From positions 1-60,247 of the IMG/VR virus record IMGVR_UViG_3300030380_004437: DNA of 60,247 nucleotides, one strand, 5' to 3'. The notes under the pieces are model-generated. The model had not been told where the DNA came from. It ran no database searches and was given only the letters and a program-made list of their open reading frames with translations. This document shows, one piece after another, positions 19,252 through 45,729 of this stretch (its first letter is position 1; each line of letters starts with the position of its first letter). The translations under genes were made by a program, and so were the position numbers. The DNA comes from a virus. Taxonomy: Duplodnaviria; Caudoviricetes.

Positions 19252-19280
19252 ATGATATAGGGTATATGGGGAAAAGTAAA
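19252..19280 (-). promoter_or_regulatory. Class I promoter for the morphogenesis operon
   Basis: TTTACT-N17-TATCAT upstream of ATG 19193. Confidence 0.5.
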
Positions 19281-19312
19281 TCTGTACTTAAATGTGACTT
19301 AAAATCCTACAT

Positions 19313-19327
19313 GGGTGGGTGGGAGGG
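19313..19327 (+). other. Potential G-quadruplex GGGTGGGTGGGAGGG
   Basis: Four G3 tracts with 1-nt loops in an AT-rich genome; related copy at 19943-19962. Confidence 0.6.
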
Positions 19328-19449
19328 TGCAGGCACGCTATAAGGGGGGTAGCCCCCTAGTATAAGTTAAGTAAAAAGTAAAGGCATTTTTTCCTATATA
19401 ACTATAAGTTATTTACTTATATACTTTTAAATATACTTATTATTTACTA

Positions 19450-19477
19450 TTTACTTTTAAGTTAATAAGCGTATTAT
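19450..19477 (+). promoter_or_regulatory. Class I promoter (TTTACT-N16-TATTAT)
   Basis: Same architecture as 20064-20091; precedes paralogous gene. Confidence 0.7.
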
Positions 19478-19541
19478 AAACGTATTAGCTTAATTATTAA
19501 CCCTTTAAATTTAGCTAATTTAATTAACTAAAGGGCTTACT

Positions 19542-19745
19542 AAGGTACTTAAAATAGCTACTAAGTATAACTTAAACGCTAAAATAGTACTAGGTAATAC
19601 GGCTAAACTAGGCGAGAAAAACTCGGCTAAGTACAAAAGCTGGGTAGGTAAAACGGTTAAAGAAGTTTTTACTACTGGGCAAGGTACGGTTGATATAACC
19701 TATGCTATTAAAGTGGGCGGTATAAAACCTGTCCCTACCGAATAA
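19542..19745 (+). CDS. Small-domain family paralogue 1, no ATG (AAG at the homologous start position, or ATA 19554)
   Basis: KVLKIATKYNLNAKIVLGNTAKLGEKNSAKYKSWVGKTVKEVFTTGQGTVDITYAIKVGGIKPVPTE*; clearly homologous to 20155-20364; in-frame TAA at 19521; AAAGGG RBS, promoter and hairpin retained. Confidence 0.7.
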   Translation, partial: KVLKIATKYNLNAKIVLGNTAKLGEKNSAKYKSWVGKTVKEVFTTGQGTVDITYAIKVGGIKPVPTE

Positions 19746-19760
19746 AACGGTTTTAGTAAC

Positions 19761-19784
19761 GGCTAGGGGGTAAAACCCCTAGCC
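19761..19784 (+). terminator. Hairpin after paralogue 1
   Basis: GGCTAGGGG-GTAAAA-CCCCTAGCC; weak U-tract. Confidence 0.6.
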
Positions 19785-19810
19785 CTATTACTATATAAAG
19801 AACATACGAG

Positions 19811-19929
19811 CATCCGAACAACCATCTTTCTAAGATCTGCTAGCAGATCTGAATTGCGTGGCACATGCTTCATGTATTGGGGGCAGACGTTTTGATCTTT
19901 GTGTGTGTGTCATGCGATCTGATCTGATG
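19811..19929. repeat. SATS-dense block 1
   Basis: 11 GATC/CATG/CATC/GATG tetramers counted, plus (GT)5. Confidence 0.8.
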
Positions 19930-20063
19930 TGTTATCTACTTTGGGTGGGTGGGTGGTGAGGGAGCCGTATTATACCTTACATTTACTTTGGGGTAAAGCT
20001 TTTGATTTACTTATAACTTTTTATTATACCGTATAGCTAGAACTTATATACTTAACTTTCCGC

Positions 20064-20091
20064 TTTACTTTCATATTTATTAGCGTATTAT
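20064..20091 (+). promoter_or_regulatory. Class I promoter (TTTACT-N16-TATTAT)
   Basis: GCTTTACTTTCATATT is identical to the upstream part of the minus-strand promoter at 20915-20943. Confidence 0.75.
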
Positions 20092-20154
20092 ATACCTAAT
20101 GTTTAGTTATTAACCCTTTAAATTAAACATTTCCGACTAATAAAGGGTACTATA

Positions 20155-20364
20155 ATGGTGATTAAAATTAGTACTAAATACGATCTTAACGCTAAAATAG
20201 TTTTAGGTAGTAATATAGGACGCCTTGGTGAAAAAAACTCAGCTAAATACAAAAGCTGGGCTAATAAAACCGTAGCGGAAATATTCAAAACGGGTCAAGG
20301 ATCTGTTGACATTACCTACGCTATTAAGGTAAAAGGTATTCAAGAAGTACCTTCAGCTAAGTAA
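20155..20364 (+). CDS. Small-domain family paralogue 2
   Basis: RBS AAAGGG, own promoter and terminator; homologous to 19542-19745. Confidence 0.8.
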   Translation: MVIKISTKYDLNAKIVLGSNIGRLGEKNSAKYKSWANKTVAEIFKTGQGSVDITYAIKVKGIQEVPSAK

Positions 20365-20375
20365 GGCTGGGAACT

Positions 20376-20407
20376 GAGGGGGTGTAAAGCCCCCTCTCTT
20401 CTTTTTT
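20376..20407 (+). terminator. Intrinsic terminator
   Basis: GAGGGGG-TGTAAAG-CCCCCTC followed by TCTTCTTTTTT. Confidence 0.8.
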
Positions 20408-20419
20408 ACTACCCACGTC

Positions 20420-20576
20420 GATCCGATCGTGGTACGTGGTATTCTCTCTCTCAATGCGATCTGATCTGAAATGGTTATTGTAGTTGTAGTTGTGGTTGTT
20501 GTAATTATATAGGGGGAAGATGTTTTGATCTTGGGGGCACGGATTTTGATTTGACAATCCTTATGCCGATCCGATC
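20420..20576. repeat. SATS-dense block 2 with (TC)n and (TTGTAG)n-like tracts
   Basis: GATC pairs 5 bp apart at 20420/20425, 20458/20463, 20568/20573; lies between two convergent terminators. Confidence 0.75.
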
Positions 20577-20590
20577 TGAAGCAGGTATAT

Positions 20591-20618
20591 AAGAAGAGGG
20601 GCACTCTTCAGCACCCCT
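20591..20618 (-). terminator. Terminator of paralogue 3
   Basis: Minus strand AGGGGTGCT-GAAG-AGTGCCCCT followed by CTTCTT. Confidence 0.6.
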
Positions 20619-20632
20619 AATCTCATTCCCAG

Positions 20633-20866
20633 TTATTTAAAAGTCAGGAATCCACACTTTAGATCATAGACCAAGTCCGCCATTACTACAAGTCTTGGTT
20701 TAAGATCAAGAGCCTCTTGAGGCGTCTTCCCATTAAGTATAGGTTGACGCTCTGCGTTGTGCACAGCTCTTGGCGTTTTACTAGTTGCCACTAGTTCACG
20801 ATCCATATTTTCACGAACATAAGCGTTATTTATAACGATCGGTTTAGTTAAGTTTTTAGTAGTCAC
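20633..20866 (-). CDS. Small-domain family paralogue 3
   Basis: GTG start with AAGGAGG RBS; HNAER...GKTPQEAL...DLVYDLKCGFL. Confidence 0.75.
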   Translation of the reverse strand: MTTKNLTKPIVINNAYVRENMDRELVATSKTPRAVHNAERQPILNGKTPQEALDLKPRLVVMADLVYDLKCGFLTFK

Positions 20867-20914
20867 AATGACCCTCCTTAATTAATAGCTAAAACCATTT
20901 TTAACTATTTATAT

Positions 20915-20943
20915 AGTATAGCTAAGAACAATATGAAAGTAAA
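20915..20943 (-). promoter_or_regulatory. Class I promoter (TTTACT-N17-TATACT)
   Basis: Read directly; upstream of paralogue 3. Confidence 0.8.
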
Positions 20944-20968
20944 GCTAGATGTAAAGTTATTTAACGAA

Positions 20969-21177
20969 GATCACATCGTGTACTACACGTAGATCACAGT
21001 GCCATGGCACATGGTTCATGGGTATGTGTGTGTGTAACCCAGTTCGGATTGTGATGGGGGAAGATGTTTTGACGATGAACTCTGGACCATGGACCTAGAT
21101 CTGATCTGATTTCCGATCGCATGTGGTTCCTGGACCATGGGATTGTGATCGGGTGCCATGATTTGATGATTGTGATC
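20969..21177. repeat. SATS-dense block 3
   Basis: About 19 SATS tetramers, several at 10-11-bp spacing; GATCTGATCTGAT and (TG)n. Confidence 0.8.
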
Positions 21178-21371
21178 CTATTGCCCTATTGACGATTGTC
21201 CATAATTCATGGTTCTTTGTCCTTTCCTCAAGTATTTTGTGCCTTGTGTCAGAGTCCGTGGTTTCCTGGTTTCTTATATAGGGTCTAGAATACCTGTAAA
21301 TCATACTGCAATTATCTTTCCCATGCTTTATCTGCACCATGCACCACGACCCAAACACCACCCATTCTCAC

Positions 21372-21476
21372 CCTATTACCAAGAAACAGCCAATAGGTCG
21401 CTAATAGGGTAGCCAATAGGTCAAGAAAAGCGATGTACATCAGTGCTTCTAGACTCATGCCTATTAGCGTATTAGC
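21372..21476. repeat. GCYAATAGG iteron-like cluster A
   Basis: Direct copies at 21389, 21400, 21412; inverted copies at 21460 and 21469. Confidence 0.65.
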
Positions 21477-21528
21477 AAATCAGAGATATTTTAAGAAAAA
21501 TGTTTTATAAAATTGGTGAGATAATAAT

Positions 21529-21601
21529 AAGAAAGTGGTGTGAGAGAGTATTAACCCTAACTCCCTCACACCGTCACAGACAATTTGGGAGGGTCTGTGA
21601 C
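21529..21601 (-). terminator. Tandem hairpins ending the early minus-strand cluster
   Basis: GTCACAGAC...GTCTGTGAC (21573-21601) and GGTGTGAG...CTCACACC, followed on the minus strand by CTTTCTT. Confidence 0.6.
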
Positions 21602-21614
21602 TAGCTACTAAAAC

Positions 21615-21815
21615 CTATTCATCTTCCCATATTGGCGTGTTGCCACATAATTTAAATACTTCAACAATGGACTTTTGTTCACCAGTCTCACCGTTAGTAA
21701 GTTTCTCAGTCTCGCCACATGGTCGACAGAACTCAATCCAGTCACCACCCAGCACTAACATATTAGTACCTGACGCAGGACGCCTAGTTTCACAAATGCT
21801 ACAATAATTCGCCAT
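21615..21815 (-). CDS. Small CxxC-CxxC protein
   Basis: CSIC...CRPC; GAGGAGG RBS; class II promoter. Confidence 0.7.
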   Translation of the reverse strand: MANYCSICETRRPASGTNMLVLGGDWIEFCRPCGETEKLTNGETGEQKSIVEVFKLCGNTPIWEDE

Positions 21816-21851: not shown

Positions 21852-21880
21852 AGTATAGGTAAGATCCTAAAAGATGCCTA
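21852..21880 (-). promoter_or_regulatory. Class II promoter TAGG-CATC-N6-GATC-N5-TATACT
   Basis: One of 11 copies of a 29-bp motif, each upstream of an RBS and ATG. Confidence 0.85.
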
Positions 21881-22190: not shown

Positions 22191-22219
22191 AGTATAGGTA
22201 AGATCTTATAAGATCCCTA
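22191..22219 (-). promoter_or_regulatory. Class II promoter (GATC/GATC)
   Basis: TAGGGATCTTATAAGATCTTACCTATACT. Confidence 0.85.
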
Positions 22220-22561: not shown

Positions 22562-22590
22562 AGTATAGCTAGGATCCTAAAGGATGCCTA
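22562..22590 (-). promoter_or_regulatory. Class II promoter (CATC/GATC)
   Basis: TAGGCATCCTTTAGGATCCTAGCTATACT. Confidence 0.85.
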
Positions 22591-23035: not shown

Positions 23036-23064
23036 AGTATATAAAGCATCATAAAGGATGCCTA
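23036..23064 (-). promoter_or_regulatory. Class II promoter (CATC/GATG)
   Basis: TAGGCATCCTTTATGATGCTTTATATACT. Confidence 0.85.
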
Positions 23065-23666: not shown

Positions 23667-23695
23667 AGTATAAGTAAGATGCTAAGCGATCCCTA
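23667..23695 (-). promoter_or_regulatory. Class II promoter (GATC/CATC)
   Basis: TAGGGATCGCTTAGCATCTTACTTATACT. Confidence 0.85.
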
Positions 23696-23975: not shown

Positions 23976-24004
23976 AGTATAGGTAAGATGCTAAGCGATG
24001 CCTA
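23976..24004 (-). promoter_or_regulatory. Class II promoter (CATC/CATC)
   Basis: TAGGCATCGCTTAGCATCTTACCTATACT. Confidence 0.85.
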
Positions 24005-24488: not shown

Positions 24489-24517
24489 AGTATAGTAAAC
24501 ATCATTTTAGATGCCTA
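24489..24517 (-). promoter_or_regulatory. Class II promoter (CATC/GATG)
   Basis: TAGGCATCTAAAATGATGTTTACTATACT; its TAG is the stop codon of the upstream gene. Confidence 0.85.
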
Positions 24518-25056: not shown

Positions 25057-25085
25057 AGTATAGTAAGGATCATATACAATCCCTA
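25057..25085 (-). promoter_or_regulatory. Class II promoter (GATT/GATC)
   Basis: TAGGGATTGTATATGATCCTTACTATACT. Confidence 0.8.
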
Positions 25086-25784: not shown

Positions 25785-25813
25785 AGTATAGTAGGGATCA
25801 CTAACGATCCCTA
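25785..25813 (-). promoter_or_regulatory. Class II promoter (GATC/GATC)
   Basis: TAGGGATCGTTAGTGATCCCTACTATACT. Confidence 0.85.
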
Positions 25814-26870: not shown

Positions 26871-26899
26871 AGTATATTAATGATCAAGTTTGATGCCTA
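26871..26899 (-). promoter_or_regulatory. Class II promoter (CATC/GATC), inside the 3' end of the upstream gene
   Basis: TAGGCATCAAACTTGATCATTAATATACT. Confidence 0.85.
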
Positions 26900-27251: not shown

Positions 27252-27569
27252 TTATTTTGAAAGTTTTTCTACTATCTCGATAAATCCACGGTCGACATCG
27301 TATTTGATGTCTTGGTAAGCGTACCTTCGTGACTCAAGTGCTTCACGTACAGTCTTCTTATTGAAGTCTAGTACACGCTCTTGATTATGTGTCACTCTAG
27401 GTATTTTACCAGTTGTGACTATAAAGTGGTCAGGATTATACTTTCCTGGCTTTATAACCTTTTCACCAGACTTAGCAATCTCTGCTAGGTTGGTTGCGAC
27501 AGCTAACTTTATGTTAGCTACCTTTTTAGTTGTGGCAGGTTTAACTACCTTCTTAACACTTTTTTTCAT
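27252..27569 (-). CDS. Small-domain family paralogue 4 with basic N-terminal tail
   Basis: KYNPD...HNQER...KKTVREAL...DIKYDVDRGFIEI; AGGAG RBS. Confidence 0.75.
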   Translation of the reverse strand: MKKSVKKVVKPATTKKVANIKLAVATNLAEIAKSGEKVIKPGKYNPDHFIVTTGKIPRVTHNQERVLDFNKKTVREALESRRYAYQDIKYDVDRGFIEIVEKLSK

Positions 27570-29633: not shown

Positions 29634-29662
29634 AGTATAGCTAGGATGTATTATCATCACTA
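29634..29662 (-). promoter_or_regulatory. Class II promoter variant (TAGT-GATG/CATC) inside the terS 3' end
   Basis: TAGTGATGATAATACATCCTAGCTATACT. Confidence 0.75.
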
Positions 29663-30159
29663 GCATTTTTCGTTATTATCCTTTGCTCCTCTTCTTCTAG
29701 TTCTTCAGGCTCCACTTCTATTATCTTGCCAGCAGGTAATACACCACCTGTATCATAATATAGTTGCTTCATACGTTCAAGCACTTCTTCTTTTGACATG
29801 GTATCTACTCTGTTTACAGTAAGTTCACTTCTGTTTACATATAGACCTGCAGCTTTACCACGAGCCACCTCTGCTGTTACTGCTGCAGAGAAAGCGTTAT
29901 TACGCATAGCACCGTCACGAATATCTTTTAAATCCTTTAAATGAGTTCCTAAACTAAGTTCTGCCTTATCTGCAGCTTTTTCTTGTAACTCACCTATTCT
30001 CTTTTGAACTAATGGATTATCTTTACTCGTTAGCACTGTACCAGCTTTCCCTGCATTCTTCTCGCTATACCCAGCGTGTTTTGCAGCATCTTTTTTACTC
30101 ATGCCTTTAGCGACATTTTGAGCAAACTTTTCTTGTTTTGGTGTTAGCTTATCCGCCAT
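29641..30159 (-). CDS. terS: Terminase small subunit
   Basis: LTPKQEKFAQNVAKGMSKKDAAKHAGYSEK...ARGKAAGLY pattern. Confidence 0.75.
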   Translation of the reverse strand: MADKLTPKQEKFAQNVAKGMSKKDAAKHAGYSEKNAGKAGTVLTSKDNPLVQKRIGELQEKAADKAELSLGTHLKDLKDIRDGAMRNNAFSAAVTAEVARGKAAGLYVNRSELTVNRVDTMSKEEVLERMKQLYYDTGGVLPAGKIIEVEPEELEEEEQRIITKNASDDNTS

Positions 30160-30712: not shown

Positions 30713-31273
30713 TTACACCTCTTCTGCGTATTTGGATTTTACGTCATACTTTATATCACCTAGTTTTAGATCACTGTGTTTTTCTAACAACTCAGCAACG
30801 GTTAGTTCACCAGTGTAATAAAGTTGTCTGGTTTTATTTTTATCAGATGAAGGAACTTTATCAGTAGCTTTCACCTTACTCTCCATGTTAATGCTTGACA
30901 CACGAACCACTTTCTTCTGCACAGGTTTCCTAAACGTAGGTTTCTTTACTACGTTTGAGTGAAACGCTACAGAGTGTGGGTCAAAGTCAGAGTCATTAGG
31001 CTCTTTAGCCAGTGGTAGAAGTAATTTATAGAGTTTTCTGCATGCGTCTTGTTTATCTTTGTACTTAAACTTTTTCAAGTTATGGCACTCAATAATTTTA
31101 TCTAGATGTTCCACAGTAAACCATGAAGGATAGGCAAATTTATTAGGGTCACCTAATATAAGTGAGCCACCTCTAATTCTACCTGACTTTACACTGTTCA
31201 CACGTACTACTCTTTTGTAAGTATTACTTATTGGTGTATCTAGAACAAATACTATAGCTTCTTCGTCTAACAT
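30713..31273 (-). CDS. Two-domain protein; C-terminus is small-domain family paralogue 5
   Basis: KNKTR...ELTVAELL...GDIKYDVKSKY. Confidence 0.7.
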   Translation of the reverse strand: MLDEEAIVFVLDTPISNTYKRVVRVNSVKSGRIRGGSLILGDPNKFAYPSWFTVEHLDKIIECHNLKKFKYKDKQDACRKLYKLLLPLAKEPNDSDFDPHSVAFHSNVVKKPTFRKPVQKKVVRVSSINMESKVKATDKVPSSDKNKTRQLYYTGELTVAELLEKHSDLKLGDIKYDVKSKYAEEV

Positions 31274-33355: not shown

Positions 33356-33578
33356 CTTGTATCATATCTCTCTTTTGTCTGGGCGTGTAACCTAAAGCCC
33401 AGCAATTTATTACTATAAGTTTTTTCTTTGTGTCTGAATAACTGTTCCAATCTCTTATTTCTTCTTCCGTACGACCACAACCTTTACATATACGAGTACC
33501 AAATTGAGTCACTGAACAAGTACCCACACATGGAGAACTAGACAAGCTTGTTGTTCGATGTAGAGATCTCTGAACCAT
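33312..33578 (-). CDS. DUF1289 family cysteine-rich protein
   Basis: SPCVGTCS...CKGCGRTEEEIRDW. Confidence 0.7.
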   Translation of the reverse strand: MVQRSLHRTTSLSSSPCVGTCSVTQFGTRICKGCGRTEEEIRDWNSYSDTKKKLIVINCWALGYTPRQKRDMIQDEEIHSRESTQNKS

Positions 33579-33858
33579 TTTTACTTTTTATGAGTCGTAT
33601 ACCATTTTCCCTGAGCCATCCTCTCAATACATCATTATGTATATCTGGATATCTTTCTTTGACTTTTTTGCAGACCTCATTATATACTCTTAAACCCTTG
33701 TAGTAATCACTATGTCCTAACCTGCACATACGAATTATTTGCCATACCCTCTGTTTTGTAATTTTATATTTCATACCTATCTCCTCTAAAGTAGCATCAG
33801 AATTTTTGTATATCATATAGATATTGAAGTACATTCTTTTTTTATCTTGCCGTTTCAT
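33538..33858 (-). CDS. Stand-alone sigma70 region 4-like HTH protein
   Basis: TLEEIGMKYKITKQRVWQI vs sigma70 r4.2 TLEEVGKQFDVTRERIRQI. Confidence 0.65.
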   Translation of the reverse strand: MKRQDKKRMYFNIYMIYKNSDATLEEIGMKYKITKQRVWQIIRMCRLGHSDYYKGLRVYNEVCKKVKERYPDIHNDVLRGWLRENGIRLIKSKNGSEISTSNNKLV

Positions 33859-34264
33859 TTGTTATGTTCTCCCTCAAAGAAGTGCTAGAAAATTCATGTT
33901 GTCTAGAGTTATAATAAATTTCTTTATTAGAGCATGAGTTATTAAACTCTGTCCAACCAGTAAATGCTTTTCCTTTATATTCCTCCCCTATTATTCTTAT
34001 ATCCCACCTTACCATATTCAGTAGGTTCAATAAATCTTGCTCTGTTTCATAACAAATTATTTCGTCCACATATCTACAACCTTTTAATTGTATTTGTCTT
34101 TCTATCAAACTTTGCACAGGTTTATTTTTATTTGATCTTTCTACGCTAGGGTCAGTGTGTAGTCCTACAATTAAATAGTCACAGACACCTTTAGCTTCTT
34201 CTAACATAGCAACATGTCCTGCGTGCAATAAATCAAAAGCACTAAATGTTATACCTATCTTCAT
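33842..34264 (-). CDS. HIGH-motif cytidylyltransferase (TagD-like glycerol-3-phosphate cytidylyltransferase family)
   Basis: FSAFDLLHAGH...LIVGL...KPVQSLIER...VDEI...SSTSLR. Confidence 0.85.
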   Translation of the reverse strand: MKIGITFSAFDLLHAGHVAMLEEAKGVCDYLIVGLHTDPSVERSNKNKPVQSLIERQIQLKGCRYVDEIICYETEQDLLNLLNMVRWDIRIIGEEYKGKAFTGWTEFNNSCSNKEIYYNSRQHEFSSTSLRENITNETAR

Positions 34265-37138: not shown

Positions 37139-38188
37139 TTATTTTATTCTTCTAGATAGCCATCTAAAGCAAGCTTCCATCCAATCATCAGCTTTACAAT
37201 GTTGTATTTCTATAAGTGCTTCTTCCTTACTCTCCTCTTTAGAGAGATACCAAGCATCTTGTATAGGTACTGCGACGTCAGTGAAAAATGGATCTTTGAA
37301 TTCCATTTGCTGAAAAGGTTTTCTAGTAAAAAACATAATTAAGTCTGCTTCCCAATCACGAAAGTCTACACTTACCATTGGATAGGGATTTACTTCATCT
37401 AGTTTATACGGATTGTGATTAATTAATAGCTTTATTGTGTAATAATCAAAAGAGTCTATTTGTAGTAATTTTTCTCTCATAGGCTCATATACATTTAAGT
37501 ACGCATGATAATTATTACTCACTTGATAATACTTACCCATTCTTATACCTGTTGCTGCAGCTACGAACTCATGTAACATTGACATGTGTACCACGTTTGC
37601 TCCATATGCACCCCAGATAATATCATTTGACCTATTTGATACTGTCATATCGAGACGAGGACTGTAGCCGTCTATGTGTACAGTTTTAAAGTATATAGTC
37701 GTATTACAGGGTACGTCAGCTCCATCTCGCCCTAAATCGCCCACAGCGTCCCACATTTGTAGGACACAGCGTCTATCGTAAGGGTCGTGTTTAAGTCTAT
37801 CAATAATAATTCTTACTTGGTCTTTACCAGCAAAATCTTTAAATATAGGGTCTTTGAAATAACTTCTCCATCTCCAGCCATACGCTCCCCACAATGTTTC
37901 ACCATCATCACTATATCTACTCATACCTTTATTGTAGTACTCCATGGTAGCTAAGTCATTAAAACCAGCCAGCATCCATAAACCTTCCATAAAATGGAAA
38001 AAGGGGTTAGCGTCTCTATCTGGGTCAAATAAAACTCTCTCGCTAGGGTTAGCATAAACTGTAGTAACTGGTTCTTCTACAGTGATGACTTTACCGTTTC
38101 TAGTATTTTCTATATGACCATTCGAGTCAAGTAAATCCATACCTCTTAAAAAGGCATCGTTTACATTTCTACAGTTTAATGTGTGCAT
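37139..38188 (-). CDS. Thymidylate synthase-fold dUMP hydroxymethylase (5-hmdU synthesis)
   Basis: Catalytic DVPCN; RSNDIIWGAYGAN (Asn implies dUMP specificity); NPFFHFMEGLWMLAG and GAYGWRWR as in YuA/M6-type enzymes; clustered with a 5-hmdU DNA kinase. Confidence 0.8.
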   Translation of the reverse strand: MHTLNCRNVNDAFLRGMDLLDSNGHIENTRNGKVITVEEPVTTVYANPSERVLFDPDRDANPFFHFMEGLWMLAGFNDLATMEYYNKGMSRYSDDGETLWGAYGWRWRSYFKDPIFKDFAGKDQVRIIIDRLKHDPYDRRCVLQMWDAVGDLGRDGADVPCNTTIYFKTVHIDGYSPRLDMTVSNRSNDIIWGAYGANVVHMSMLHEFVAAATGIRMGKYYQVSNNYHAYLNVYEPMREKLLQIDSFDYYTIKLLINHNPYKLDEVNPYPMVSVDFRDWEADLIMFFTRKPFQQMEFKDPFFTDVAVPIQDAWYLSKEESKEEALIEIQHCKADDWMEACFRWLSRRIK

Positions 38189-38964
38189 TATTCTCCTATT
38201 CCTTCTTTATATGCTTTTTTCCAACCTATGATTACATCCTTACGAGGTAATCCGTTCCAAGCAGTTTTAGTTTGTTTCTCTACTACCTTAACGCATGTAG
38301 GGTGTAAAGAGTGTAATCTTTCAGCACCTTCATTATGAACATCAATAGTTCTCCACTCACTACAACCACCGTCAGCGTTAGATGATTTTTGACCTTGTGC
38401 ATAATAAAAACTTACCTTACATGCTTTACCTTTTCTCAATAGTTGTAAAGCTATATCAAAATCTTCCATTACCCTAGTCCTGCCCCACTCTATGTCATCA
38501 GGAAACTCGTTTAAGTTATAAGCGAGTACTCTCATGTATCGAGTATTTTCTACAGATAAATCTTCTACCCTATTATTACCTTCCCTAGCACTTACACCCA
38601 CGTGGGCATAACCTTGACTAAGCCACTCGTCTAATAAACCAAACATAGCAGGATACTCATCTGACTCTAAGTATCGTAAGTGCCAGTCGGTAGGGCTTTT
38701 ACGAATGTAAAAACGTAAATCATCATCTAGCATAACTATATGGGGGTCATCACTATGCTCTATAATATATTTTCGTTTAGCCCCTATGCCTATACAGTCC
38801 TCTGGGACTACCATTTTAGGTGTGTTTTGATATTTAGTGTACAGGTGTTGCTCATCATGATCAATAACTAATGTTACATCACCATTAGCTTGCATCCATT
38901 GGGGAAACCATTTTAAAGTTTCTTGATTAGTGGGTCTACCACGAGTAGGAATATATATTTTCAT
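38188..38964 (-). CDS. GT-A glycosyltransferase, TET-associated (TAGT)/JGT-like
   Basis: IYIPTRGR, MLDDD (DxD), EDFDIALQLL, GGCS motifs. Confidence 0.75.
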   Translation of the reverse strand: MKIYIPTRGRPTNQETLKWFPQWMQANGDVTLVIDHDEQHLYTKYQNTPKMVVPEDCIGIGAKRKYIIEHSDDPHIVMLDDDLRFYIRKSPTDWHLRYLESDEYPAMFGLLDEWLSQGYAHVGVSAREGNNRVEDLSVENTRYMRVLAYNLNEFPDDIEWGRTRVMEDFDIALQLLRKGKACKVSFYYAQGQKSSNADGGCSEWRTIDVHNEGAERLHSLHPTCVKVVEKQTKTAWNGLPRKDVIIGWKKAYKEGIGE

Positions 38965-39821
38965 AGGTATTGTGCCTCATTAAATTTTGGGTATTTATCG
39001 TATTTATATTTTGCTCTAGGTCTACCCTCACCTAACCTAGTTCTCTCATATTTATCAAACTCACATAAACTGTGCTCTATCTCTCTCATCTCTAGCTTTG
39101 GTACATGTGGCTCTAAGTATTTATCTGCTACTTGTAAAAGTTTATACATCTCTGCGTTCCAGTCATGTTTGTGCGAGTCCCAAGTAAGCGTTCTTAAATT
39201 CATTCTATTTAATCCACGCTTTGCTCCTGGACCTGGATTTGCCCAAGTATAAAGATCACGAGCGTTCCTTAATAAATGAGTGTGTCTTAAATCTGTAACA
39301 ACTTCGTATGACATAAATCCACTAAATCCTGCGTAAGGAAGATAATTTTTCCAAGTATCTTCTAAACTACTAGAGACTATCTCTGGGTGGTTATTATATA
39401 AAGGTGTAAGTATTTTGTCTACTGTTTGTTCTATTTTAGTACCACCTAAAGTACCTGTCAACATATAAGCACCTGTGTAAACTTTTTTCCCACTATCCAT
39501 TCTATCCTGCATTATAGCTTTTACCTTTTCTGGTTGCCAATCCTCAGGGAAACCTATCTCTTCTAGGGTGGATGGCCAATTTATTTGACGAGCCACGGAC
39601 ATTGAGAAAGCTAAGTTAGGGTGGTCAAAGTAAGGCTCTCTCCAGTTTGTTCTTACCCATTCTGTGACTGTGTCTAGTTCTCTAAACACATTACAAAAAC
39701 TATAAGTTTTTAATATCTTATCTTCTGTCCACGGTGGATGAAGACCGTTTTTTCTCCTTAAATATATTTGGTGTCTTTCATTTATGTAGTTAAAAAACCC
39801 TTCTACTTTATCTTGTACCAT
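38961..39821 (-). CDS. 5-hmdU DNA kinase (aGPT-Pplase1 family)
   Basis: ERHQIY.RR..G..PPWTEDKIL..YSFCNVFRELD; FMSYEVVTD; GPGAKRGL; IEHSLCEFDKY. Confidence 0.85.
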   Translation of the reverse strand: MVQDKVEGFFNYINERHQIYLRRKNGLHPPWTEDKILKTYSFCNVFRELDTVTEWVRTNWREPYFDHPNLAFSMSVARQINWPSTLEEIGFPEDWQPEKVKAIMQDRMDSGKKVYTGAYMLTGTLGGTKIEQTVDKILTPLYNNHPEIVSSSLEDTWKNYLPYAGFSGFMSYEVVTDLRHTHLLRNARDLYTWANPGPGAKRGLNRMNLRTLTWDSHKHDWNAEMYKLLQVADKYLEPHVPKLEMREIEHSLCEFDKYERTRLGEGRPRAKYKYDKYPKFNEAQYL

Positions 39822-40270
39822 GATGGTTTACCTCGTTTAGTCCATTTCGCAAATACTTTTTCGCCTATATAATAATTTCTATATGCCTCGACTGCATTCC
39901 CCTGAACCTTATATTGATCAGGCATGCATTGTGGATGTTCTTGTAGCCCTTTACTTTTTATCAAAGGGTTAGGCAGTGACATAATAACATCGTATGATTT
40001 ATGACATACGTTTTTATTATATCGCCACATAAATTCTTCATTGAGACAAATTAACAAGTCTTTCAGCCATAGCCAATTATCTAAACTGGCTGCAGACCAT
40101 ATAGTACAAGGGTGTTTCATATGTACAGGTCTGTAAGGTGCTGTTTGATCATGAAGCCAGAAACTTGTACAAAGCATTTGAGCTGACTCTAGAATCATTT
40201 TAGACACATGTTTATCACAGTGCATTTCTGCTGCAGTCTGTATATTATCGTCTAATTTAAATATATTCAC
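39803..40270 (-). CDS. Pyrimidine-dimer DNA glycosylase / DenV-like family protein
   Basis: MNIF.LD...HCDKHV.KMILESAQML...HPCTIW...AYRNYY. Confidence 0.7.
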   Translation of the reverse strand: MNIFKLDDNIQTAAEMHCDKHVSKMILESAQMLCTSFWLHDQTAPYRPVHMKHPCTIWSAASLDNWLWLKDLLICLNEEFMWRYNKNVCHKSYDVIMSLPNPLIKSKGLQEHPQCMPDQYKVQGNAVEAYRNYYIGEKVFAKWTKRGKPSWYKIK

Positions 40271-43323: not shown

Positions 43324-43341
43324 TCTGTCCTCAAGTCTTAG

Positions 43342-43372
43342 TCTAGGGTAAGTAAATATAACTTACCCTAGA
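43342..43372. terminator. Hairpin between ssb and primase
   Basis: TCTAGGGTAAGT-AAATATA-ACTTACCCTAGA. Confidence 0.55.
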
Positions 43373-43391
43373 ACTGTAATTTAAAAAAGGA

Positions 43392-44207
43392 TTAGAAAGG
43401 AGCTTCGTCGTTAGAAGTAGCCATCACAACATTTTCACTACCTACGGTCTGTGAAAACTGTTTAGCTGCAAGATACATATCTGTTTCTTCTTCTGTGACT
43501 GGACCCACCATGTCTACATTCCAACCGAACCATGTACCACGATCATTTGACTCCTGTACAGTAGTCAATTTATATTTGTGGCTATAGGTAGGAGGAGTAA
43601 AAACACCACCGTCCGCTTTTTTCACTTTTAGACTAGCCATAACTGCATTCCAAGTTCTTGATTTCTTTAACTGTGTTCCAGCCATAGGAATCATAACTTG
43701 TTGAAACGAGTCACCGTCTAGTACTAGGCAATAGTGAGTTGCAGATGTCTGGATATAGTTTCCATTATCTAGGACATCTCTACCATCCCTATCCTTTTTA
43801 GTTTGACGTAGTATTTCAGGGTCAAAGTGTTGCGTCACCAACCCTCCACCTGTCTCGCGTGGCTGCCACTCGAGAAACATACGTCTATACGACACTGGTA
43901 ATACAAAACATCCAACATCTTCCCTAAAGACTTCTTTAGTGACTGTGTTAGTTATATCACCAGCTACTGCACCCTCAATATATTTACCATCCTTCTTATT
44001 TACTTCTGGGCTCATAGCTTGAAGTATTTTAAGACGAGGAATAGTAATATCGTCAGAGGTTACATTTTCCAAACCAGACCCAGCATCTTCCTCAAATAAT
44101 GAGGCAGTGGCTAAAGCCGTGTTTGATTTAGTTGCTACTTCTTTTGATGGCTTAGATTCAGTAGGAGTAGCCTCTACGTCTTCTTTAACAGCTTCGTTAG
44201 TTGTCAT
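43392..44207 (-). CDS. Single-stranded DNA-binding protein (putative)
   Basis: IPRLKILQAMSPE...EW.PR..GGG...TQLKKSR.WN...GTWFGW; acidic tail ending PF. Confidence 0.7.
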   Translation of the reverse strand: MTTNEAVKEDVEATPTESKPSKEVATKSNTALATASLFEEDAGSGLENVTSDDITIPRLKILQAMSPEVNKKDGKYIEGAVAGDITNTVTKEVFREDVGCFVLPVSYRRMFLEWQPRETGGGLVTQHFDPEILRQTKKDRDGRDVLDNGNYIQTSATHYCLVLDGDSFQQVMIPMAGTQLKKSRTWNAVMASLKVKKADGGVFTPPTYSHKYKLTTVQESNDRGTWFGWNVDMVGPVTEEETDMYLAAKQFSQTVGSENVVMATSNDEAPF

Positions 44208-44758
44208 TTTTTCACCTTTATTTTACGACCTACATATACATTAAAGGTGTCTAAAGGGAGGTCGCTACCTTTTTCTACCTGCTCTTTAATGACAGCTTTG
44301 AGAGTCATAGGCTCTACCCATTTTTTCTGCATGAGCGAGTACCCTTCTTTCTCTAAGTTAGTCATAAGAGTTTTTGCACTCTCGTCTTCACCTCTACCGA
44401 AGTTAGCCGAGACAGTGTTCTTTATAATATCACCAAGACCATTTTCTTCAAGCCAATGAAAACATTGATCTCTATTTTCCTCAGTGATACGACCAGAGTA
44501 AAACCTATTTACTGAAATAGAAGTACCGTCGCTAAGTTTAAATTCAGACATACCTACTTCTTCTAATTTAGAAGGTAAGTCCTCTTCACTTATTTGACGG
44601 TATTTATTTTTAAGATTGTTAAGAACATCTTGCTGTTCTTCCATTTGAGCTTCTAGGTCTTTCAGGTCTTTAGCTAAAGCAGAAATACTTTTTAAATCTT
44701 CAGACTTAATTTCTTTCTCCTCTGCATCTTTTTCCATTTGATCTAATATATTTGTCAT
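44204..44758 (-). CDS. Conserved replication-module protein
   Basis: Coiled coil plus WLEENGLGDIIK...VEPMTLKA. Confidence 0.6.
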   Translation of the reverse strand: MTNILDQMEKDAEEKEIKSEDLKSISALAKDLKDLEAQMEEQQDVLNNLKNKYRQISEEDLPSKLEEVGMSEFKLSDGTSISVNRFYSGRITEENRDQCFHWLEENGLGDIIKNTVSANFGRGEDESAKTLMTNLEKEGYSLMQKKWVEPMTLKAVIKEQVEKGSDLPLDTFNVYVGRKIKVKK

Positions 44759-44799
44759 AATTTTTCCTTTGTTATCACTACTTTTGGTAGTGCGTCTCT

Positions 44800-44828
44800 A
44801 TTAAACTATTTTTGGTAATAAAAGTAAA
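44800..44828 (-). promoter_or_regulatory. Class I promoter for the replication operon
   Basis: TTTACT-N17-TTTAAT. Confidence 0.6.
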
Positions 44829-44843
44829 TAGGTTGTTGCGTAT

Positions 44844-45425
44844 TTATACGCCACTTCTGAAGGTAAGGTTGATTCTCTCTCCACAACCTTCCATATCTAA
44901 TACTGCGTGTGTACTTCTCATTTGAGATTTACCATCAAATATAAAAACGTCGCCATCTTCCATTAAATAATGTGTTAAACTTTTTTTAGGAACATACTTA
45001 GTATTTATTTCACTAGTGTCTACTTTTTCTTTTATATCTTTTTCATACTCAAGCCATTCGAAAACTCTAGGTGCACCAAGAGACACGGACAAAACTATAT
45101 CGTTTTTAGTGGGTACTGTATCAGAATGGTGCGGTATGCCTTTACCTTCTGGTCCATAATATCCACACAAACAAAAATTAAACTTCACTTCTTTTTTTAA
45201 TTTATAACTTACCAAATGTTCAGCGTTTGATTTTATTACATACATAGGAGTAGACCACGGCTCAGGCTCATATAGTTTACCAGCATATTCGAAAGGGCTA
45301 TCGCCAAAGCCACGAGTTGGTCTGCCTACTACTTTTTTGCCTTTATACATGCGAACTCTTGGCTCGTCCCAAGTAGTAATACCACAATCAAAACCTGTAA
45401 ATTCTCCTTTTATAAATTCTATCAT
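44844..45425 (-). CDS. alkB: AlkB-family 2OG-Fe(II) dioxygenase
   Basis: FNFCL..YY...HHSD (HxD)...SVSLGAPRVF...THAV...RINLTFR. Confidence 0.85.
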   Translation of the reverse strand: MIEFIKGEFTGFDCGITTWDEPRVRMYKGKKVVGRPTRGFGDSPFEYAGKLYEPEPWSTPMYVIKSNAEHLVSYKLKKEVKFNFCLCGYYGPEGKGIPHHSDTVPTKNDIVLSVSLGAPRVFEWLEYEKDIKEKVDTSEINTKYVPKKSLTHYLMEDGDVFIFDGKSQMRSTHAVLDMEGCGERINLTFRSGV

Positions 45426-45510
45426 AATAAGTGATGGTGTGTCTTGTCAAGTTTTTAGTCTTAGGAGGATCATGGAAAATGACAAAACTTATACGGCACC
45501 ACCATCAGTG

Positions 45511-45686
45511 CCTATTAGTACTATTTACTATTAGTAGTATAGGGAGATTTTATTTTTAGTAAAGGATAAATGTTAATTTCAGCTAATAGGTCAATATGTT
45601 CTTAGGTATATCCTTAAATAAATCAATCACTTAAGCTACCTATTAGCTGATATATTATCACCCTATTAGCTCAATAGTGCTAATAA
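45511..45686. other. Candidate replication origin: CCTATTAGC iterons flanking an IHF consensus
   Basis: Copies at 45511, 45582 (inverted), 45639, 45662; AATCAATCACTTA at 45621-45633 matches WATCAANNNNTTR. Confidence 0.55.
45536..45563 (-). promoter_or_regulatory. Class I promoter (TTTACT-N16-TATACT)
   Basis: Upstream of the alkB leader. Confidence 0.65.
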
Positions 45687-45700
45687 ATCACGAGCAATCA

Positions 45701-45729
45701 TTTACTTTCTGGTTAAGTATAAATATGCT
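45701..45729 (+). promoter_or_regulatory. Class I promoter (TTTACT-N17-TATGCT)
   Basis: Directly upstream of the SNF2 helicase. Confidence 0.7.

What the first reader, a model, noticed from the sequence alone, without database searches (positions are those of the whole stretch)
19252..45729. Integrated model: a DNA-modification-reading ('epigenetic') transcription cascade
Seen in sequence: (a) thymidine-hypermodification genes; (b) a promoter and gene start devoid of TpG/TpC on both strands; (c) non-coding blocks saturated with SATS; (d) 11 promoters with two SATS boxes 10 bp apart; (e) TpS-free TTTACT -35 boxes in front of all five paralogues of a small domain. SATS is exactly the tetramer in which both strands carry a TpS thymine. 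Established: 5-hmdU DNA kinases modify only a context-dependent subset of hmdU. Inference: the modified context here is T followed by G or C. Host RNAP first transcribes the unmodifiable 'bootstrap' gene. Its product, or a paralogue, then reads modified SATS pairs and controls class II promoters. Newly replicated, not yet hypermodified DNA could switch them, giving a built-in timer.
Basis: partly seen in the sequence, partly recalled or inferred. Interest (0 to 1): 0.95.

Follow-up and report, generated by a model that had tools for sequence, protein, structure and literature searches.

The report
Modification-site-free gene island in pelagiphage
A marine phage that carries genes for chemically decorating its thymines keeps one small gene, from promoter to terminator, almost free of the two-letter sites where related phages place that decoration, which suggests the phage's own DNA chemistry shapes which genes can be read and when.

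Summary
The sequence observations hold. The window is a complete 60-kb HTVC023P-type pelagiphage. It carries a thymidylate-synthase homologue, a TAGT-like transferase and an M6-gp55-like protein (PF18723).

- **Island:** 19393-19614 holds no TG, TC, CA or GA for 222 bp (about 37 expected; shuffle maximum 59). The whole unit 19335-19800 has 17 such steps against about 107 expected.
- **Selection:** the purge is selected. Synonymous codons avoid the sites, and the ATG start seen in relatives is ATA here while the frame stays under purifying selection. Diverged relatives hold 0.5-kb units with 3-6 sites in a 103-codon gene.
- **Controls:** four relatives lacking PF18723 have no island, but neither do three or four of seven PF18723-bearing relatives, nor M6, YuA, Sonora, ViI, phiW-14 or SP10.
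- **Published context:** TG/TC is the inferred modification context in four hmdU-derived systems.
- **Class II promoters:** ten (plus one variant) are real but lineage-specific. They look sigma-70-like, and the SATS boxes are arms of a roughly 29-bp palindrome.

A modification-exempt transcription unit is well supported. The protein-reads-modified-SATS cascade and the timer remain untested.

The parts
19252..19280 (-). TTTACT-17-TATCAT promoter-like site heading the packaging/structural operon (287-aa gene, TerL 16436-17953 and onward). It is divergent from P1 and is not TpS-free.
   Evidence: TerL by Pfam and tblastn
19313..19327 (+). G-run GGGTGGGTGGGAGGG upstream of the P1 unit. A second copy lies at 19943-19957 upstream of P2.
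   Evidence: repeat family D13
19335..19800 (+). Low-TpS transcription unit 1: hairpin, promoter, 5'UTR, P1 gene and terminator. It has 17 TpS/SpA steps against about 107 expected.
19393..19614 (.). Core island: 222 bp with no TG, TC, CA or GA on either strand.
19450..19477 (+). P1 promoter, TTTACT-16-TATTAT.
   Evidence: (D5)
19554..19745 (+). P1, a 63-codon paralogue with an ATA start (ATG in relatives L009 and L012). It is the most TpS-depleted gene in the genome (z = -4.8).
19761..19785 (+). GC-rich hairpin after the P1 stop codon; a putative terminator.
   Evidence: I5
19800..19945 (.). Non-coding block A, dense in TpS/SpA and SATS (11 against 2.0 expected). It holds GATC repeats and GCGATC.
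20064..20091 (+). P2 promoter, TTTACT-16-TATTAT.
20155..20364 (+). P2, a 69-aa paralogue with an ATG start, 74% identical to P1 and mildly TpS-depleted. Its terminator lies at 20376-20396.
20400..20630 (.). Non-coding block B (SATS 8 against 3.2 expected; weak).
20633..20866 (-). Paralogue 3 (77 aa, GTG start). Its TTTACT-17-TATACT promoter lies at 20943-20915.
20960..21200 (.). Non-coding block C. SATS count is 19 against 3.3 expected, and it holds the densest 100-bp TpS/SpA window of the genome (21074-21173, 42 steps).
21852..21880 (-). Class II promoter/palindrome: TAGG-CATC-N6-GATC-N5-TATACT.
22191..22219 (-). Class II promoter/palindrome (GATC/GATC).
22562..22590 (-). Class II promoter/palindrome (CATC/GATC).
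23036..23064 (-). Class II promoter/palindrome (CATC/GATG).
23667..23695 (-). Class II promoter/palindrome (GATC/CATC); strong hairpin, z = -6.4.
23976..24004 (-). Class II promoter/palindrome (CATC/CATC); strong hairpin, z = -7.6.
24489..24517 (-). Class II promoter/palindrome (CATC/GATG).
25057..25085 (-). Class II variant: box 1 is GATT, not SATS. In the fold its T pairs with G of box 2 as a wobble.
25785..25813 (-). Class II promoter/palindrome (GATC/GATC).
26871..26899 (-). Class II promoter (CATC/GATC); its fold is no better than shuffles.
29634..29662 (-). Class II promoter/palindrome (GATG/CATC).
27252..27569 (-). Paralogue 4 (105 aa), with TTTACT at 27640-27635. This is the protein that was modelled.
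30713..31273 (-). Paralogue 5 (186 aa; the shared domain is at the C-terminus), with TTTACT at 31323-31318.
33538..33858 (-). Small YlxM / sigma-70 region-4-like HTH protein. It is an alternative candidate for reading -35-zone elements.
37139..38188 (-). Thymidylate-synthase homologue, a candidate dUMP hydroxymethylase. The activity cannot be told from the sequence.
38188..38964 (-). TAGT-like (TET/JBP-associated) glycosyltransferase.
38961..39821 (-). PF18723 HMUDK_hel protein, homologue of M6 gp55 (about 41% identity). It is not the P-loop kinase.
44844..45425 (-). 2OG-Fe(II) oxygenase, first gene of the replication/modification operon. A TTTACT-16-TATACT site lies at 45563.

Best explanation
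The window is a complete HTVC023P-type pelagiphage genome with a thymine-modification gene set related to that of M6-like phages.

Directly upstream of the packaging/structural operon, and divergent from it, lies a small transcription unit (19335-19800). It comprises a promoter, 5'UTR, the 63-codon gene P1 and a terminator. Selection has purged from it every T followed by G or C on either strand. That dinucleotide is where hmdU-derived hypermodifications are placed in the phages studied so far. The unit therefore stays ordinary, unmodified T-DNA inside an otherwise modified chromosome.

The most likely purpose is to let unaided host sigma-70 RNA polymerase recognise the TTTACT/TATTAT promoter and transcribe the unit on the fully modified incoming genome. 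The product is a small, basic, probably DNA-binding protein. It is one of five paralogues, each with its own TTTACT promoter.

The flanking non-coding blocks are the densest in the same dinucleotides. The eleven class II promoters place four such thymines on the two arms of a palindrome in their -35/spacer zone, while everything from -10 to the ribosome-binding site is free of them. Both are therefore plausible modification-sensitive elements.

Shown: the purge, its selection, its extent over a whole transcription unit, its recurrence in relatives, and the gene set. Inferred: that TpS is the modified context in this phage, that modification hinders host polymerase, that P1 is early, and any link between P1 and the class II promoters.
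For: Statistics of the island.
- A 222-bp run free of TG, TC, CA and GA, the unique outlier among 45 dinucleotide-class pairs. The shuffle maximum is 59.
- Both genome-wide extremes of TpS density lie within 19.3-21.2 kb.

Selection at synonymous sites.
- P1 has 15 sites against 32.3 +/- 3.6 expected; 0 of 20,000 resamples reach 15.
- The G006 paralogues have 5-6 sites against 47-50 expected.
- Neighbouring normal paralogue copies: the G006 copy is not depleted; the G009 copy is depleted too (36 against 48.4 expected, P about 0.0008), though far less than its neighbour (19 against 49.1).

Protein and start codon.
- 52 of the 120 listed family proteins are 102-104 aa and have only 3-6 D/E/Q/H/C/W/M residues. 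The median share for the rest is 13%.
- The start codon is ATG in L009 and L012 but ATA in the window, L002, L005 and L006. Within the ATA lineage, synonymous to nonsynonymous codon differences are 5:1, 6:1, 6:2, 5:0, 3:1 and 6:1.

Extent. In 8 loci from 6 contigs the low zone is 506-559 bp. It runs about 170-250 bp upstream of the start codon to about 30 bp past the stop, which I read as promoter to terminator (sequence).

Recurrence. 13 of 34 TerL loci with at least 3 kb of upstream sequence have a run of 100 bp or more, placed 1.6-3.5 kb upstream of TerL.

Controls. 0 of 4 PF18723-lacking relatives have an island.

Literature.
- TS context: PMC6449724 and PMC13458397.
- hmdU converted 'in sequence-specific contexts': PMC8989533 and PMC5889632 (passages).
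- Bulky major-groove groups block bacterial RNA polymerase at promoters: PMC11550810 introduction.

Other.
- No phage RNA polymerase was found by Pfam or NCBIfam among the proteins scanned.
- The -10-to-SD segments of all 11 class II promoters account for 11 of the 25 longest TpS-free runs.
Against: - No P-loop 5-hmdU kinase was detected in the window or in 5 relatives. The chemistry and the context in this phage are therefore unknown.
- Only 3 of the 7 PF18723-bearing clade genomes have a strong island (G000, G006, G009). G002 is weak, and G003, G004 and G005 lack one.
- M6, YuA, Sonora, phiW-14, ViI and SP10 have none (ratios 0.80-1.17).
- An ATA start should lower translation, which sits oddly with a gene that must act first.
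- A purge on both strands and through the coding region is more than promoter recognition requires.
- Other TTTACT promoters carry TpS in their spacers.
- Intergenic TpS depletion does not separate PF18723-bearing genomes (0.70-0.90) from PF18723-lacking ones (0.81-0.94).
- The paralogue fold has no significant structural match, so DNA binding is a guess.
Confidence: 0.5

Rival explanations
1. P1 or a paralogue binds the hypermodified SATS pairs and switches the class II promoters, and newly replicated DNA that is not yet hypermodified resets them, giving a timer.
For: - Every S position flanking the central AT is G or C in 43 of 44 cells across the 11 promoters, and G and C interchange, also between orthologues in L003. 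A requirement for TpS on both strands would produce exactly this.
- The boxes lie 10 bp apart, on one face of the helix.
- The P1/P2 subfamily and the class II promoters co-occur in the same lineage.
- The segment from -10 to the SD is TpS-free in all 11 promoters.
Against: - Class II promoters are absent from 6 of 6 related PF18723-bearing genomes that do carry paralogues.
- G002 has a P1-like gene but no class II family.
- The boxes are palindrome arms with some compensatory change, and the single non-SATS box keeps pairing through a wobble.
- Six of the 11 already fit a sigma-70 pattern.
- No evidence ties the protein to the site.
- A sigma-70 region-4-like HTH protein at 33538-33858 is an equally good candidate reader.
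Confidence: 0.15
2. The island is a cis-acting DNA element that must stay unmodified: a replication origin unwinding element or R-loop origin, or a terminase recognition (pac) region next to the packaging genes. The gene inside it is incidental.
For: - The core is 77% A+T with reiterated TTACT and TACTT words.
- It is flanked by GATC- and GCGATC-rich repeat blocks and by G-runs, which are conserved as an architecture in G002, G004 and G006.
- It sits 1.6-3.5 kb upstream of TerL in all relatives that have it.
- The purge on both strands fits a duplex-level property.
- The weak ATA start suggests that the state of the DNA matters more than protein yield.
Against: - The zone matches transcription-unit boundaries, from promoter to terminator, in two gene subfamilies.
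- It spans about 0.5 kb and is duplicated in G006, which is longer than known unwinding elements.
- The protein stays under purifying selection.
- The terminase small-subunit-like gene lies 10 kb away at 29641-30159.
- No ends or GC-skew switch could be seen.
Confidence: 0.15
3. The class II SATS pairs are ordinary. They are the inner arms of a roughly 29-bp palindrome that serves as an operator for a dimeric regulator and/or as the terminator hairpin of the upstream gene, overlapping a sigma-70-like promoter. Modification plays no part. This reading is compatible with the best explanation for the island.
For: - The sigma-70 scan lists 6 of 11 as TAGGCA-17-TATACT with 9 of 12 matches.
- In most of the 11 minimum-energy folds (my reading of the dot-bracket lines; in 23981 and 23672 box 2 pairs with the upstream AAGATG stretch instead) the two boxes pair with each other, with z <= -3.7 in 5 of 11.
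- 75% of cells are paired, against 33-52% when the partner is slid. The pair S1-S4 is GC in 7, CG in 3 and other in 7. The pair S2-S3 is CG in 11, GC in 1, UG in 1 and other in 4.
- Two elements are flagged as terminator-like.
- The family is lineage-specific.
Against: - In 7 of 17 distinct rows S1-S4 is a C-C mismatch yet still S, so pairing alone does not explain the restriction to G or C.
- Covariation is weak (8 of 500 shuffles reach it) and the rows are related.
- Four of the 11 folds are no better than shuffles.
Confidence: 0.4
4. The constraint acts on the RNA. The transcript avoids UG, UC, CA and GA to escape an endoribonuclease, such as a host or phage mRNA interferase.
For: Nuclease-site-free mRNAs are a known idea (recalled, not tested here). 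The purge does cover the whole transcript.
Against: - The avoidance is strand-symmetric.
- It extends about 60-115 bp upstream of the -35 box in the window and about 170-250 bp upstream of the start codon in the G006-type units, which is DNA that is not transcribed.
Confidence: 0.04
5. The pattern is chance, a local composition effect, a recent foreign insertion or an assembly artefact.
For: The region is A+T-rich and repeat-rich, and the G006 contig breaks inside its duplicated unit.
Against: - log10 P is about -19 even with the island's own base composition.
- The property, rather than the sequence, is conserved across contigs from many samples.
- The same sequence is held by runs of 11 studies.
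- The genes belong to a family with normal-composition paralogues in the same genomes.
Confidence: 0.01

Closest known systems
Thymidine hypermodification of M6-, ViI-, phiW-14- and SP10-type phages (Lee 2018 and 2021; Flodman 2019; the 2026 dapT paper)
   Same: - A TS homologue and a PF18723 (M6 gp55-like) gene lie next to the DNA polymerase module.
- HTVC023P-type clades with these genes are already described (PMC9599517, passages).
- The published modification context is TG/TC.
   Different: - No P-loop kinase (PF18748) and no aGPT-Pplase2 were detected here. A TAGT-like transferase is present instead.
- None of the six classical phages tested has a TpS-free island.
- No paper found in four searches describes target-free islands. 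The word 'promoter' does not occur in the main text of PMC9599517.
Bacillus phage SPO1: hmU DNA, TF1 and hmU-dependent transcription (recalled, not from a call)
   Same: It is a phage with modified thymine in which a small DNA-binding protein prefers the modified DNA and shapes the temporal transcription programme.
   Different: - In SPO1 all T is hmU, so there is no sequence context and no exempt region.
- TF1 belongs to the HU family, whereas the paralogues here match no family.
Dam-methylation-sensitive promoters: Mu mom, IS10 transposase and P1 functions (recalled)
   Same: Symmetric sites in the -35/-10 zone have a modification state (full, hemi or none) that changes promoter use. Replication creates a transient state, which acts as a timer.
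   Different: - Those cases use host adenine methylation at GATC.
- Here the mark would be a phage-made thymine adduct at TpS, and it is unproven.
Restriction- or modification-site avoidance, and unmethylated CpG islands (recalled)
   Same: Local or global depletion of a short word because of what an enzyme does at that word. Promoter-linked regions escape a genome-wide mark.
   Different: - Here the word is the target of the phage's own presumed modification.
- The depletion is total and confined to one transcription unit.
- It goes as far as changing amino acids and the start codon.
Base J (glucosyl-hmU) flanking transcription units in kinetoplastids (PMC7055916 seen in a search listing only; the rest recalled)
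   Same: A hypermodified thymine concentrated at the borders of transcription units affects polymerase passage. A TAGT-family transferase is involved.
   Different: - That is a eukaryotic Pol II system using a JBP hydroxylase.
- Here the dense blocks beside the unit are only a sequence observation.

Membership tests
5-hmdU-derived thymidine hypermodification pathway (M6/ViI/SP10/phiW-14 type) | A thymidylate-synthase homologue acting as dUMP hydroxymethylase | tested here: inconclusive
   37139-38188 matches Thymidylat_synt (E = 1e-22) but falls below every NCBIfam equivalog cut-off. Hydroxymethylase and methylase activity cannot be told apart by these tools.
5-hmdU-derived thymidine hypermodification pathway (M6/ViI/SP10/phiW-14 type) | P-loop 5-hmdU DNA kinase (PF18748; M6 gp54) | tested here: not met
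   - No PF18748 match at E <= 1 in the window or in 5 of 5 complete relatives.
- The M6 gp54 protein finds nothing in the window.
- The syntenic 155-aa ORF has no Walker A motif by my reading of its translation, and no similarity to gp54.
- The positive control finds the family in 4 of 5 known phages and misses phiW-14, so a divergent kinase is not excluded.
5-hmdU-derived thymidine hypermodification pathway (M6/ViI/SP10/phiW-14 type) | PF18723 (HMUDK_hel; annotated aGPT-Pplase1 in GenBank records) protein encoded beside the TS homologue | tested here: met
   38961-39821 matches with E = 6.5e-46. It is 41-43% identical to YuA/M6-type proteins and corresponds to M6 gp55.
5-hmdU-derived thymidine hypermodification pathway (M6/ViI/SP10/phiW-14 type) | Modified T present in virion DNA at TG/TC | not testable with these tools
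   All public runs found are held as contigs only. The context is known only for other phages.
Bacterial sigma-70 promoters | A -35-like and a -10-like hexamer 16-18 bp apart, upstream of a gene with an SD | tested here: met
   The consensus scan lists the TTTACT promoters and 6 of the 11 class II sites. Consensus matches are not proof of function.
Winged-helix / HTH DNA-binding proteins (for the five paralogues) | A significant sequence or structural match to a known DNA-binding fold | tested here: not met
   - Pfam, PHROGs and PDB profile searches find nothing.
- The AF2 domain model has pLDDT > 90 with beta-alpha-alpha-alpha-beta order.
- Foldseek gives 0 of 22 matches at E <= 0.001 against PDB.
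- Against BFVD, 0 of 22 reach E <= 0.001; the best is E = 0.023, to an unnamed phage protein.
Modification-state-sensitive promoters (Dam/mom type) | Promoter activity or regulator binding changes with the modification state of sites in the promoter | not testable with these tools
   Only the placement of the sites is shown.

The most novel reading that the evidence does not exclude
The phage uses its own thymine hypermodification as a cis-regulatory code written in the dinucleotide TpS.
- Units purged of TpS are readable by naive host polymerase on incoming DNA.
- Palindromic promoters carrying four positioned TpS thymines, and TpS-saturated blocks, act as modification-dependent switches or insulators.
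- The hemi-modified state after replication provides a built-in clock.

The purge would then also be a sequence-only readout of a modifying enzyme's specificity, usable across metagenomes.
Probability: 0.2. Interest if true: 0.95.

Novelty: new variant of a known kind. Interest (0 to 1): 0.8.

Why it matters
DNA hypermodification in phages is discussed almost only as armour against restriction. Here a phage has rewritten a whole gene to keep it clear of the dinucleotide where such marks are placed. The rewriting reaches synonymous codons, amino-acid content and even the start codon. The most site-dense DNA of the genome lies right beside that gene.

This gives three testable things:
- an in-silico prediction of the modification context for an uncultured, abundant marine phage group;
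- a natural pair of modified and unmodified promoters with which to measure how hypermodified thymine affects bacterial RNA polymerase;
- a candidate case of a virus using its own DNA chemistry for gene timing.

It also corrects the annotation: the gene taken for the kinase is the gp55-type partner, and no canonical kinase was detected in this clade.

Tried and rejected
- **Megablast:** 8 kb against GenBank phages gave no match.
- **Rfam:** over 18.5-30 kb there were only two sub-threshold hits.
- **Paralogue family:** Pfam, PHROGs, PDB profile search and Foldseek against PDB and BFVD gave nothing significant. The Atlas look-alike search gave only unnamed viral clusters. One had an automatic 'ETX/MTX2' label with no common Pfam at score 0.90, which I treat as noise.
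- **-35 hexamers:** a comparison of PF18723-bearing and PF18723-lacking relatives did not discriminate, because TTTAC-type boxes occur in both.
- **AGGCAT-type -35 elements in relatives:** only scattered isolated matches turned up, not the promoter family.
- **Intergenic TpS observed/expected:** this did not discriminate.
- **'Highly expressed genes purge TpS':** rejected, because the major capsid gene is on the enriched side (z = +2.4).
- **Public reads:** all 24 runs listed are held as contigs, so there is no depth, no ends and no strand information. One RNA run's listed contigs leave 19319-19820 uncovered while another covers 19456-19654. DNA carry-over cannot be excluded, so I draw nothing from either.
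- **General palindrome or restriction-site avoidance:** rejected as a cause, because the island keeps AGCT, GTAC, CTAG and ACGT (read directly).
- **Supplements:** supplementary files of the papers were not opened. Supplementary restriction tables of PMC6449724 and PMC13458397 may refine the context.

Full report
**What the window is.** The window is a whole IMG/VR virus record of 60,247 bp, rated 100% complete. It has 36% G+C, and nearly all its genes lie on the - strand. Its large terminase is 61.5% identical to that of Pelagibacter phage HTVC027P and 56% identical to that of HTVC023P, so it is an HTVC023P-type pelagiphage.
- The segment from 45.4 kb down to 30 kb holds replication and DNA-modification genes. 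These include an AEP primase, a UvrD-like helicase, a family A polymerase and PD-(D/E)XK nucleases.
- The segment 29.7-21.6 kb holds small genes of unknown function.
- The segment from 19.2 kb downward holds the packaging and structural genes.
- The finding concerns the 2.4-kb junction at 19.2-21.6 kb and the promoters of the small-gene region.

**The modification genes, with a correction.** Pfam finds a thymidylate-synthase homologue (37139-38188), a TAGT-like glycosyltransferase (38188-38964), a PF18723 'HMUDK_hel' protein (38961-39821) and a 2OG-Fe(II) oxygenase (44844-45425). These genes in HTVC023P-type clades are already in print under the names TS and aG/PT-PPlase1 (PMC9599517, passages).

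It is in fact the homologue of M6 gp55. The experimentally shown 5-hmdU DNA kinase is M6 gp54, a P-loop protein of family PF18748, and gp55 was not needed for the in vitro reaction (PMC8989533, Table 1 and passages).

PF18748 is not detectable in the window or in 5 of 5 complete relatives. The M6 gp54 protein finds nothing in the window. The same search recovers PF18748 in YuA, M6, ViI and SP10 but misses phiW-14 (4 of 5), so a very divergent kinase cannot be excluded. Where my notes say 'kinase-bearing', read 'PF18723-bearing'.

**The TpS-free island is real and far beyond chance.** TG, TC, CA and GA together make up 22.9% of dinucleotide steps in the window. Positions 19393-19614 contain none for 222 bp, and the next-longest runs (60 and 51 bp) flank that stretch.
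- Of the 45 possible pairs of strand-symmetric dinucleotide classes, only this pair stands out, at 6.1 times the expected longest run. The runner-up reaches 2.4 times and comes from the same region.
- Shuffling the bases of 19335-19800 gave a longest free run of 21.5 on average and 59 at most in 20,000 trials. The unit holds 17 such steps where about 107 are expected.
- In 100-bp windows the genome mean is 22.9 (sd 4.5). The two lowest windows (0 steps) lie in the unit. The two highest (42 and 39 steps) lie in the non-coding blocks next to it.

**What the island contains.** The region is a tandem duplication of about 615 bp. Each copy has the same order of parts:
- a G-run;
- a TTTACT-16-TATTAT promoter;
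- a conserved 5'UTR;
- a small gene on the + strand (P1 at 19554-19745, P2 at 20155-20364, 74% identical);
- a GC hairpin;
- a non-coding block.

P1 has no ATG, GTG or TTG start, because each of those codons contains TG. Two relatives about 87% identical (L009, L012) have ATG exactly where the window, L002, L005 and L006 have ATA. Within the ATA lineage, codon differences are mostly synonymous (5:1, 6:1, 6:2, 5:0, 3:1, 6:1). The frame is therefore still under purifying selection and is most simply read as ATA-initiated.

Resampling synonymous codons with the genome's own usage gives 32.3 +/- 3.6 TpS/SpA steps for P1, against 15 observed (0 of 20,000 resamples reach 15). For its first 21 codons the figures are 9.2 expected and 1 observed. 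P1 is the most depleted of 78 genes tested (z = -4.8). The major capsid gene is on the enriched side (z = +2.4). A simple expression-level effect is therefore unlikely.

**Relatives show that the property, not the sequence, is conserved.** I fetched 80 terminase-linked loci from IMG/VR.
- Of the 34 loci with at least 3 kb upstream of TerL, 13 have a free run of 100 bp or more, always 1.6-3.5 kb upstream of TerL. Three have runs of 60-99 bp and 18 have shorter ones. Some of these contigs are near-duplicates.
- In whole genomes the longest runs are 222 (window), 287 (G006), 134 (G009), 66 (G002), 57 (G005), 51 (G004) and 37 (G003).
- In G006 and G009 the island is a different subfamily of the same gene family. 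In G006 it is a complete unit of about 0.5 kb, from promoter through a 103-codon gene to the terminator, and it is duplicated.
- In 8 loci from 6 contigs that gene has 3-6 TpS/SpA steps in about 305 positions, and the low zone measures 506-559 bp. Synonymous resampling expects 47-50 steps.
- The few steps that remain in the G006 copy are the ATG and a handful of Asp/Glu codons (my reading of the sequence).
- The protein itself has been reshaped. 52 of the 120 listed database relatives are 102-104 aa and have only 3-6 D/E/Q/H/C/W/M residues, whose codons cannot avoid these dinucleotides. The median for the other 68 is 13%.
- A paralogue with normal composition lies next to the purged copy in G006; in G009 the neighbouring copy is itself mildly depleted.

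The purge has therefore happened in at least two subfamilies at the same genomic position.

**Controls.** All 6 relatives that are at least 90% complete carry PF18723.
- The four closest GenBank relatives lack it (0 of 4). These are HTVC027P, HTVC023P, 023Pt_psg01 and DSL-LC04. Their longest free runs are 29-45 bp, or 0.87-1.29 times expectation.
Three or four of the seven PF18723-bearing clade genomes lack a strong island.
- The classical hypermodifying phages YuA, M6, Sonora, phiW-14, ViI and SP10 have none (0.80-1.17 times expectation).
- The island is thus a speciality of part of this pelagiphage clade, not a general trait of T-hypermodifying phages.

**Why TpS.** Flodman et al. 2019 found that restriction sites resistant in M6, ViI and phiW-14 DNA share TG or TC. 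[quoted passage not shown] A 2026 paper shows that dapT in Acinetobacter phage 15599 sits mainly at TG, less at TC and rarely at TT or TA (PMC13458397, abstract and passages). Lee et al. state that hmdU is converted in sequence-specific contexts (passages).

It remains an inference for this phage, all the more so because no kinase was detected.

**The paralogue family.** Iterated profile search over the related genomes gives one family. It has a basic N-terminal tail and a conserved C-terminal domain of about 55 aa.
- The window has five members: P1, P2, 20633-20866, 27252-27569 and 30713-31273.
- Each is preceded by TTTACT 16-17 bp from a -10-like hexamer. As a rough figure, five of five among 8 such promoters for 78 genes has a probability of about 3e-6.
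- The same box also heads the replication/modification operon (45563) and the structural operon (19280). The site at 45701 abuts the start codon and is doubtful.
- The AlphaFold model of 27252-27569 is confident in the domain (pLDDT > 90) and has beta-alpha-alpha-alpha-beta order. Foldseek finds nothing at E <= 0.001 in PDB or BFVD.
- All 142 database relatives are unnamed. DNA binding is therefore a guess based on basic charge and helix order.

**The class II promoters.** Ten sites on the - strand between 21.8 and 29.7 kb fit TAGG-SATS-N6-SATS-N5-TATACT. An eleventh has GATT in box 1.
- All eleven precede small genes with a GGAGG ribosome-binding site.
- In all eleven, the 28 columns from just before TATACT to the ribosome-binding site hold no TpS/SpA step. 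These segments make up 11 of the 25 longest free runs in the window.
- The flanking S positions are G or C in 43 of 44 cells, with both letters used, and they swap between orthologues in L003. That is suggestive of a requirement for TpS on both strands.

Three results favour an ordinary reading.
- The consensus scan already lists six of them as sigma-70-like TAGGCA-17-TATACT.
- The two boxes are the inner arms of an imperfect palindrome of about 29 bp whose outer arm includes the -10 box. They pair in most of the 11 folds by my reading of the dot-bracket lines, with z <= -3.7 in five. 75% of cells are paired against 33-52% for slid partners, with modest compensatory change. The one non-SATS box keeps pairing through a wobble.
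- The family, and the gap-6 peak of SATS pairs (26 against 11.5 expected), exist only in the window's close lineage. None of six related PF18723-bearing genomes has them, although all six have paralogues.

**The dense blocks.** SATS is not enriched genome-wide, and GATC and CATG occur at their Markov expectation. Locally, however, 19800-19945 has 11 SATS against 2.0 expected and 20960-21200 has 19 against 3.3, while 20400-20630 is weak. In relatives the equivalent blocks are rich in GATC, GACA repeats, GCGATC and short GC hairpins rather than in SATS as such. 'Saturated with TpS/SpA' is therefore the better description. The function of the blocks is unknown.

**Verdict.** The observations are confirmed, with small corrections. 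The most secure conclusion is new as far as four literature searches show: part of this phage clade keeps one small transcription unit free of the dinucleotide that hmdU-derived modification targets in other phages.

I favour exemption from the phage's own modification, so that naive host polymerase can use the unit. This rests on three points. The zone follows transcription-unit boundaries. No phage polymerase was found among the proteins scanned. Bulky major-groove groups are reported to block bacterial polymerase at promoters (PMC11550810, introduction). A modification-free origin or packaging element is a fair rival.

Those steps are a paralogue reading modified SATS pairs and a replication-coupled timer.

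Noticed in passing
window 19554-19556: P1 begins with ATA where two relatives (L009, L012) have ATG. The upstream sequence also differs: the window reads TAAGGT about 8 nt before the start. This looks like a natural non-canonical start fixed by pressure at the DNA level.
   Followed up: yes
window 38961-39821 and 39803-40270: The gene read as the 5-hmdU kinase is M6 gp55-like (PF18723). No P-loop kinase (PF18748) was detected in the window or in 5 relatives. The 155-aa ORF in the position syntenic with M6 gp54 has no Walker A motif and matches no family.
   Followed up: yes
window 19313-19327 and 19943-19957; also G002 about 38555-38520, and G006/G009 beside their units: G-runs of the GGGTGGGTGGG type (potential G-quadruplex formers) lie on the sense strand upstream of each small-gene unit. 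Similar runs flank the units in relatives.
   Followed up: partly
window 19914, 20456, 21115; G002 37884-38055; G004 19474-20491; G006 61143-61153: GCGATC words cluster in the non-coding blocks next to the paralogue units in several related genomes. They may be iterons or a protein-binding repeat.
   Followed up: partly
window 33538-33858 (-): A 106-aa protein matches YlxM/UPF0122 and, weakly, sigma-70 region 4. It is a candidate -35-zone reader encoded in the replication operon.
   Followed up: no
window 33842-34264 (-): A cytidylyltransferase-like protein (like RfaE domain II and glycerol-3-phosphate cytidylyltransferase) lies next to the polymerase gene. It might activate a sugar or polyol for the TAGT-like transferase.
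   Followed up: no
window 45701-45732 (+): The TTTACT-17-TATGCT site in front of the only large + strand gene (SNF2-type helicase, 45730-47181) ends directly at the ATG. Either the transcript is leaderless or starts inside the annotated gene, or the site is not the promoter.
   Followed up: no
window 20471-20637: This bin draws very high summed contig depth in RNA and DNA runs (for example 14,705 in X19). The cause appears to be short matches to the ACAACTACAAC-type low-complexity repeat from other organisms, not the phage.
   Followed up: no
window 1069-2037 (-): The C-terminus of a 322-aa structural-region protein matches the Spt5 C-terminal repeat family (E = 7e-9). This is probably a repeat-composition match.
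   Followed up: no
G006 (L094-L097), both contig ends: The 62-kb relative's contig begins and ends inside two roughly 90%-alike copies of the TpS-free unit. The assembly probably broke at this tandem duplication of a circular or permuted genome.
   Followed up: partly
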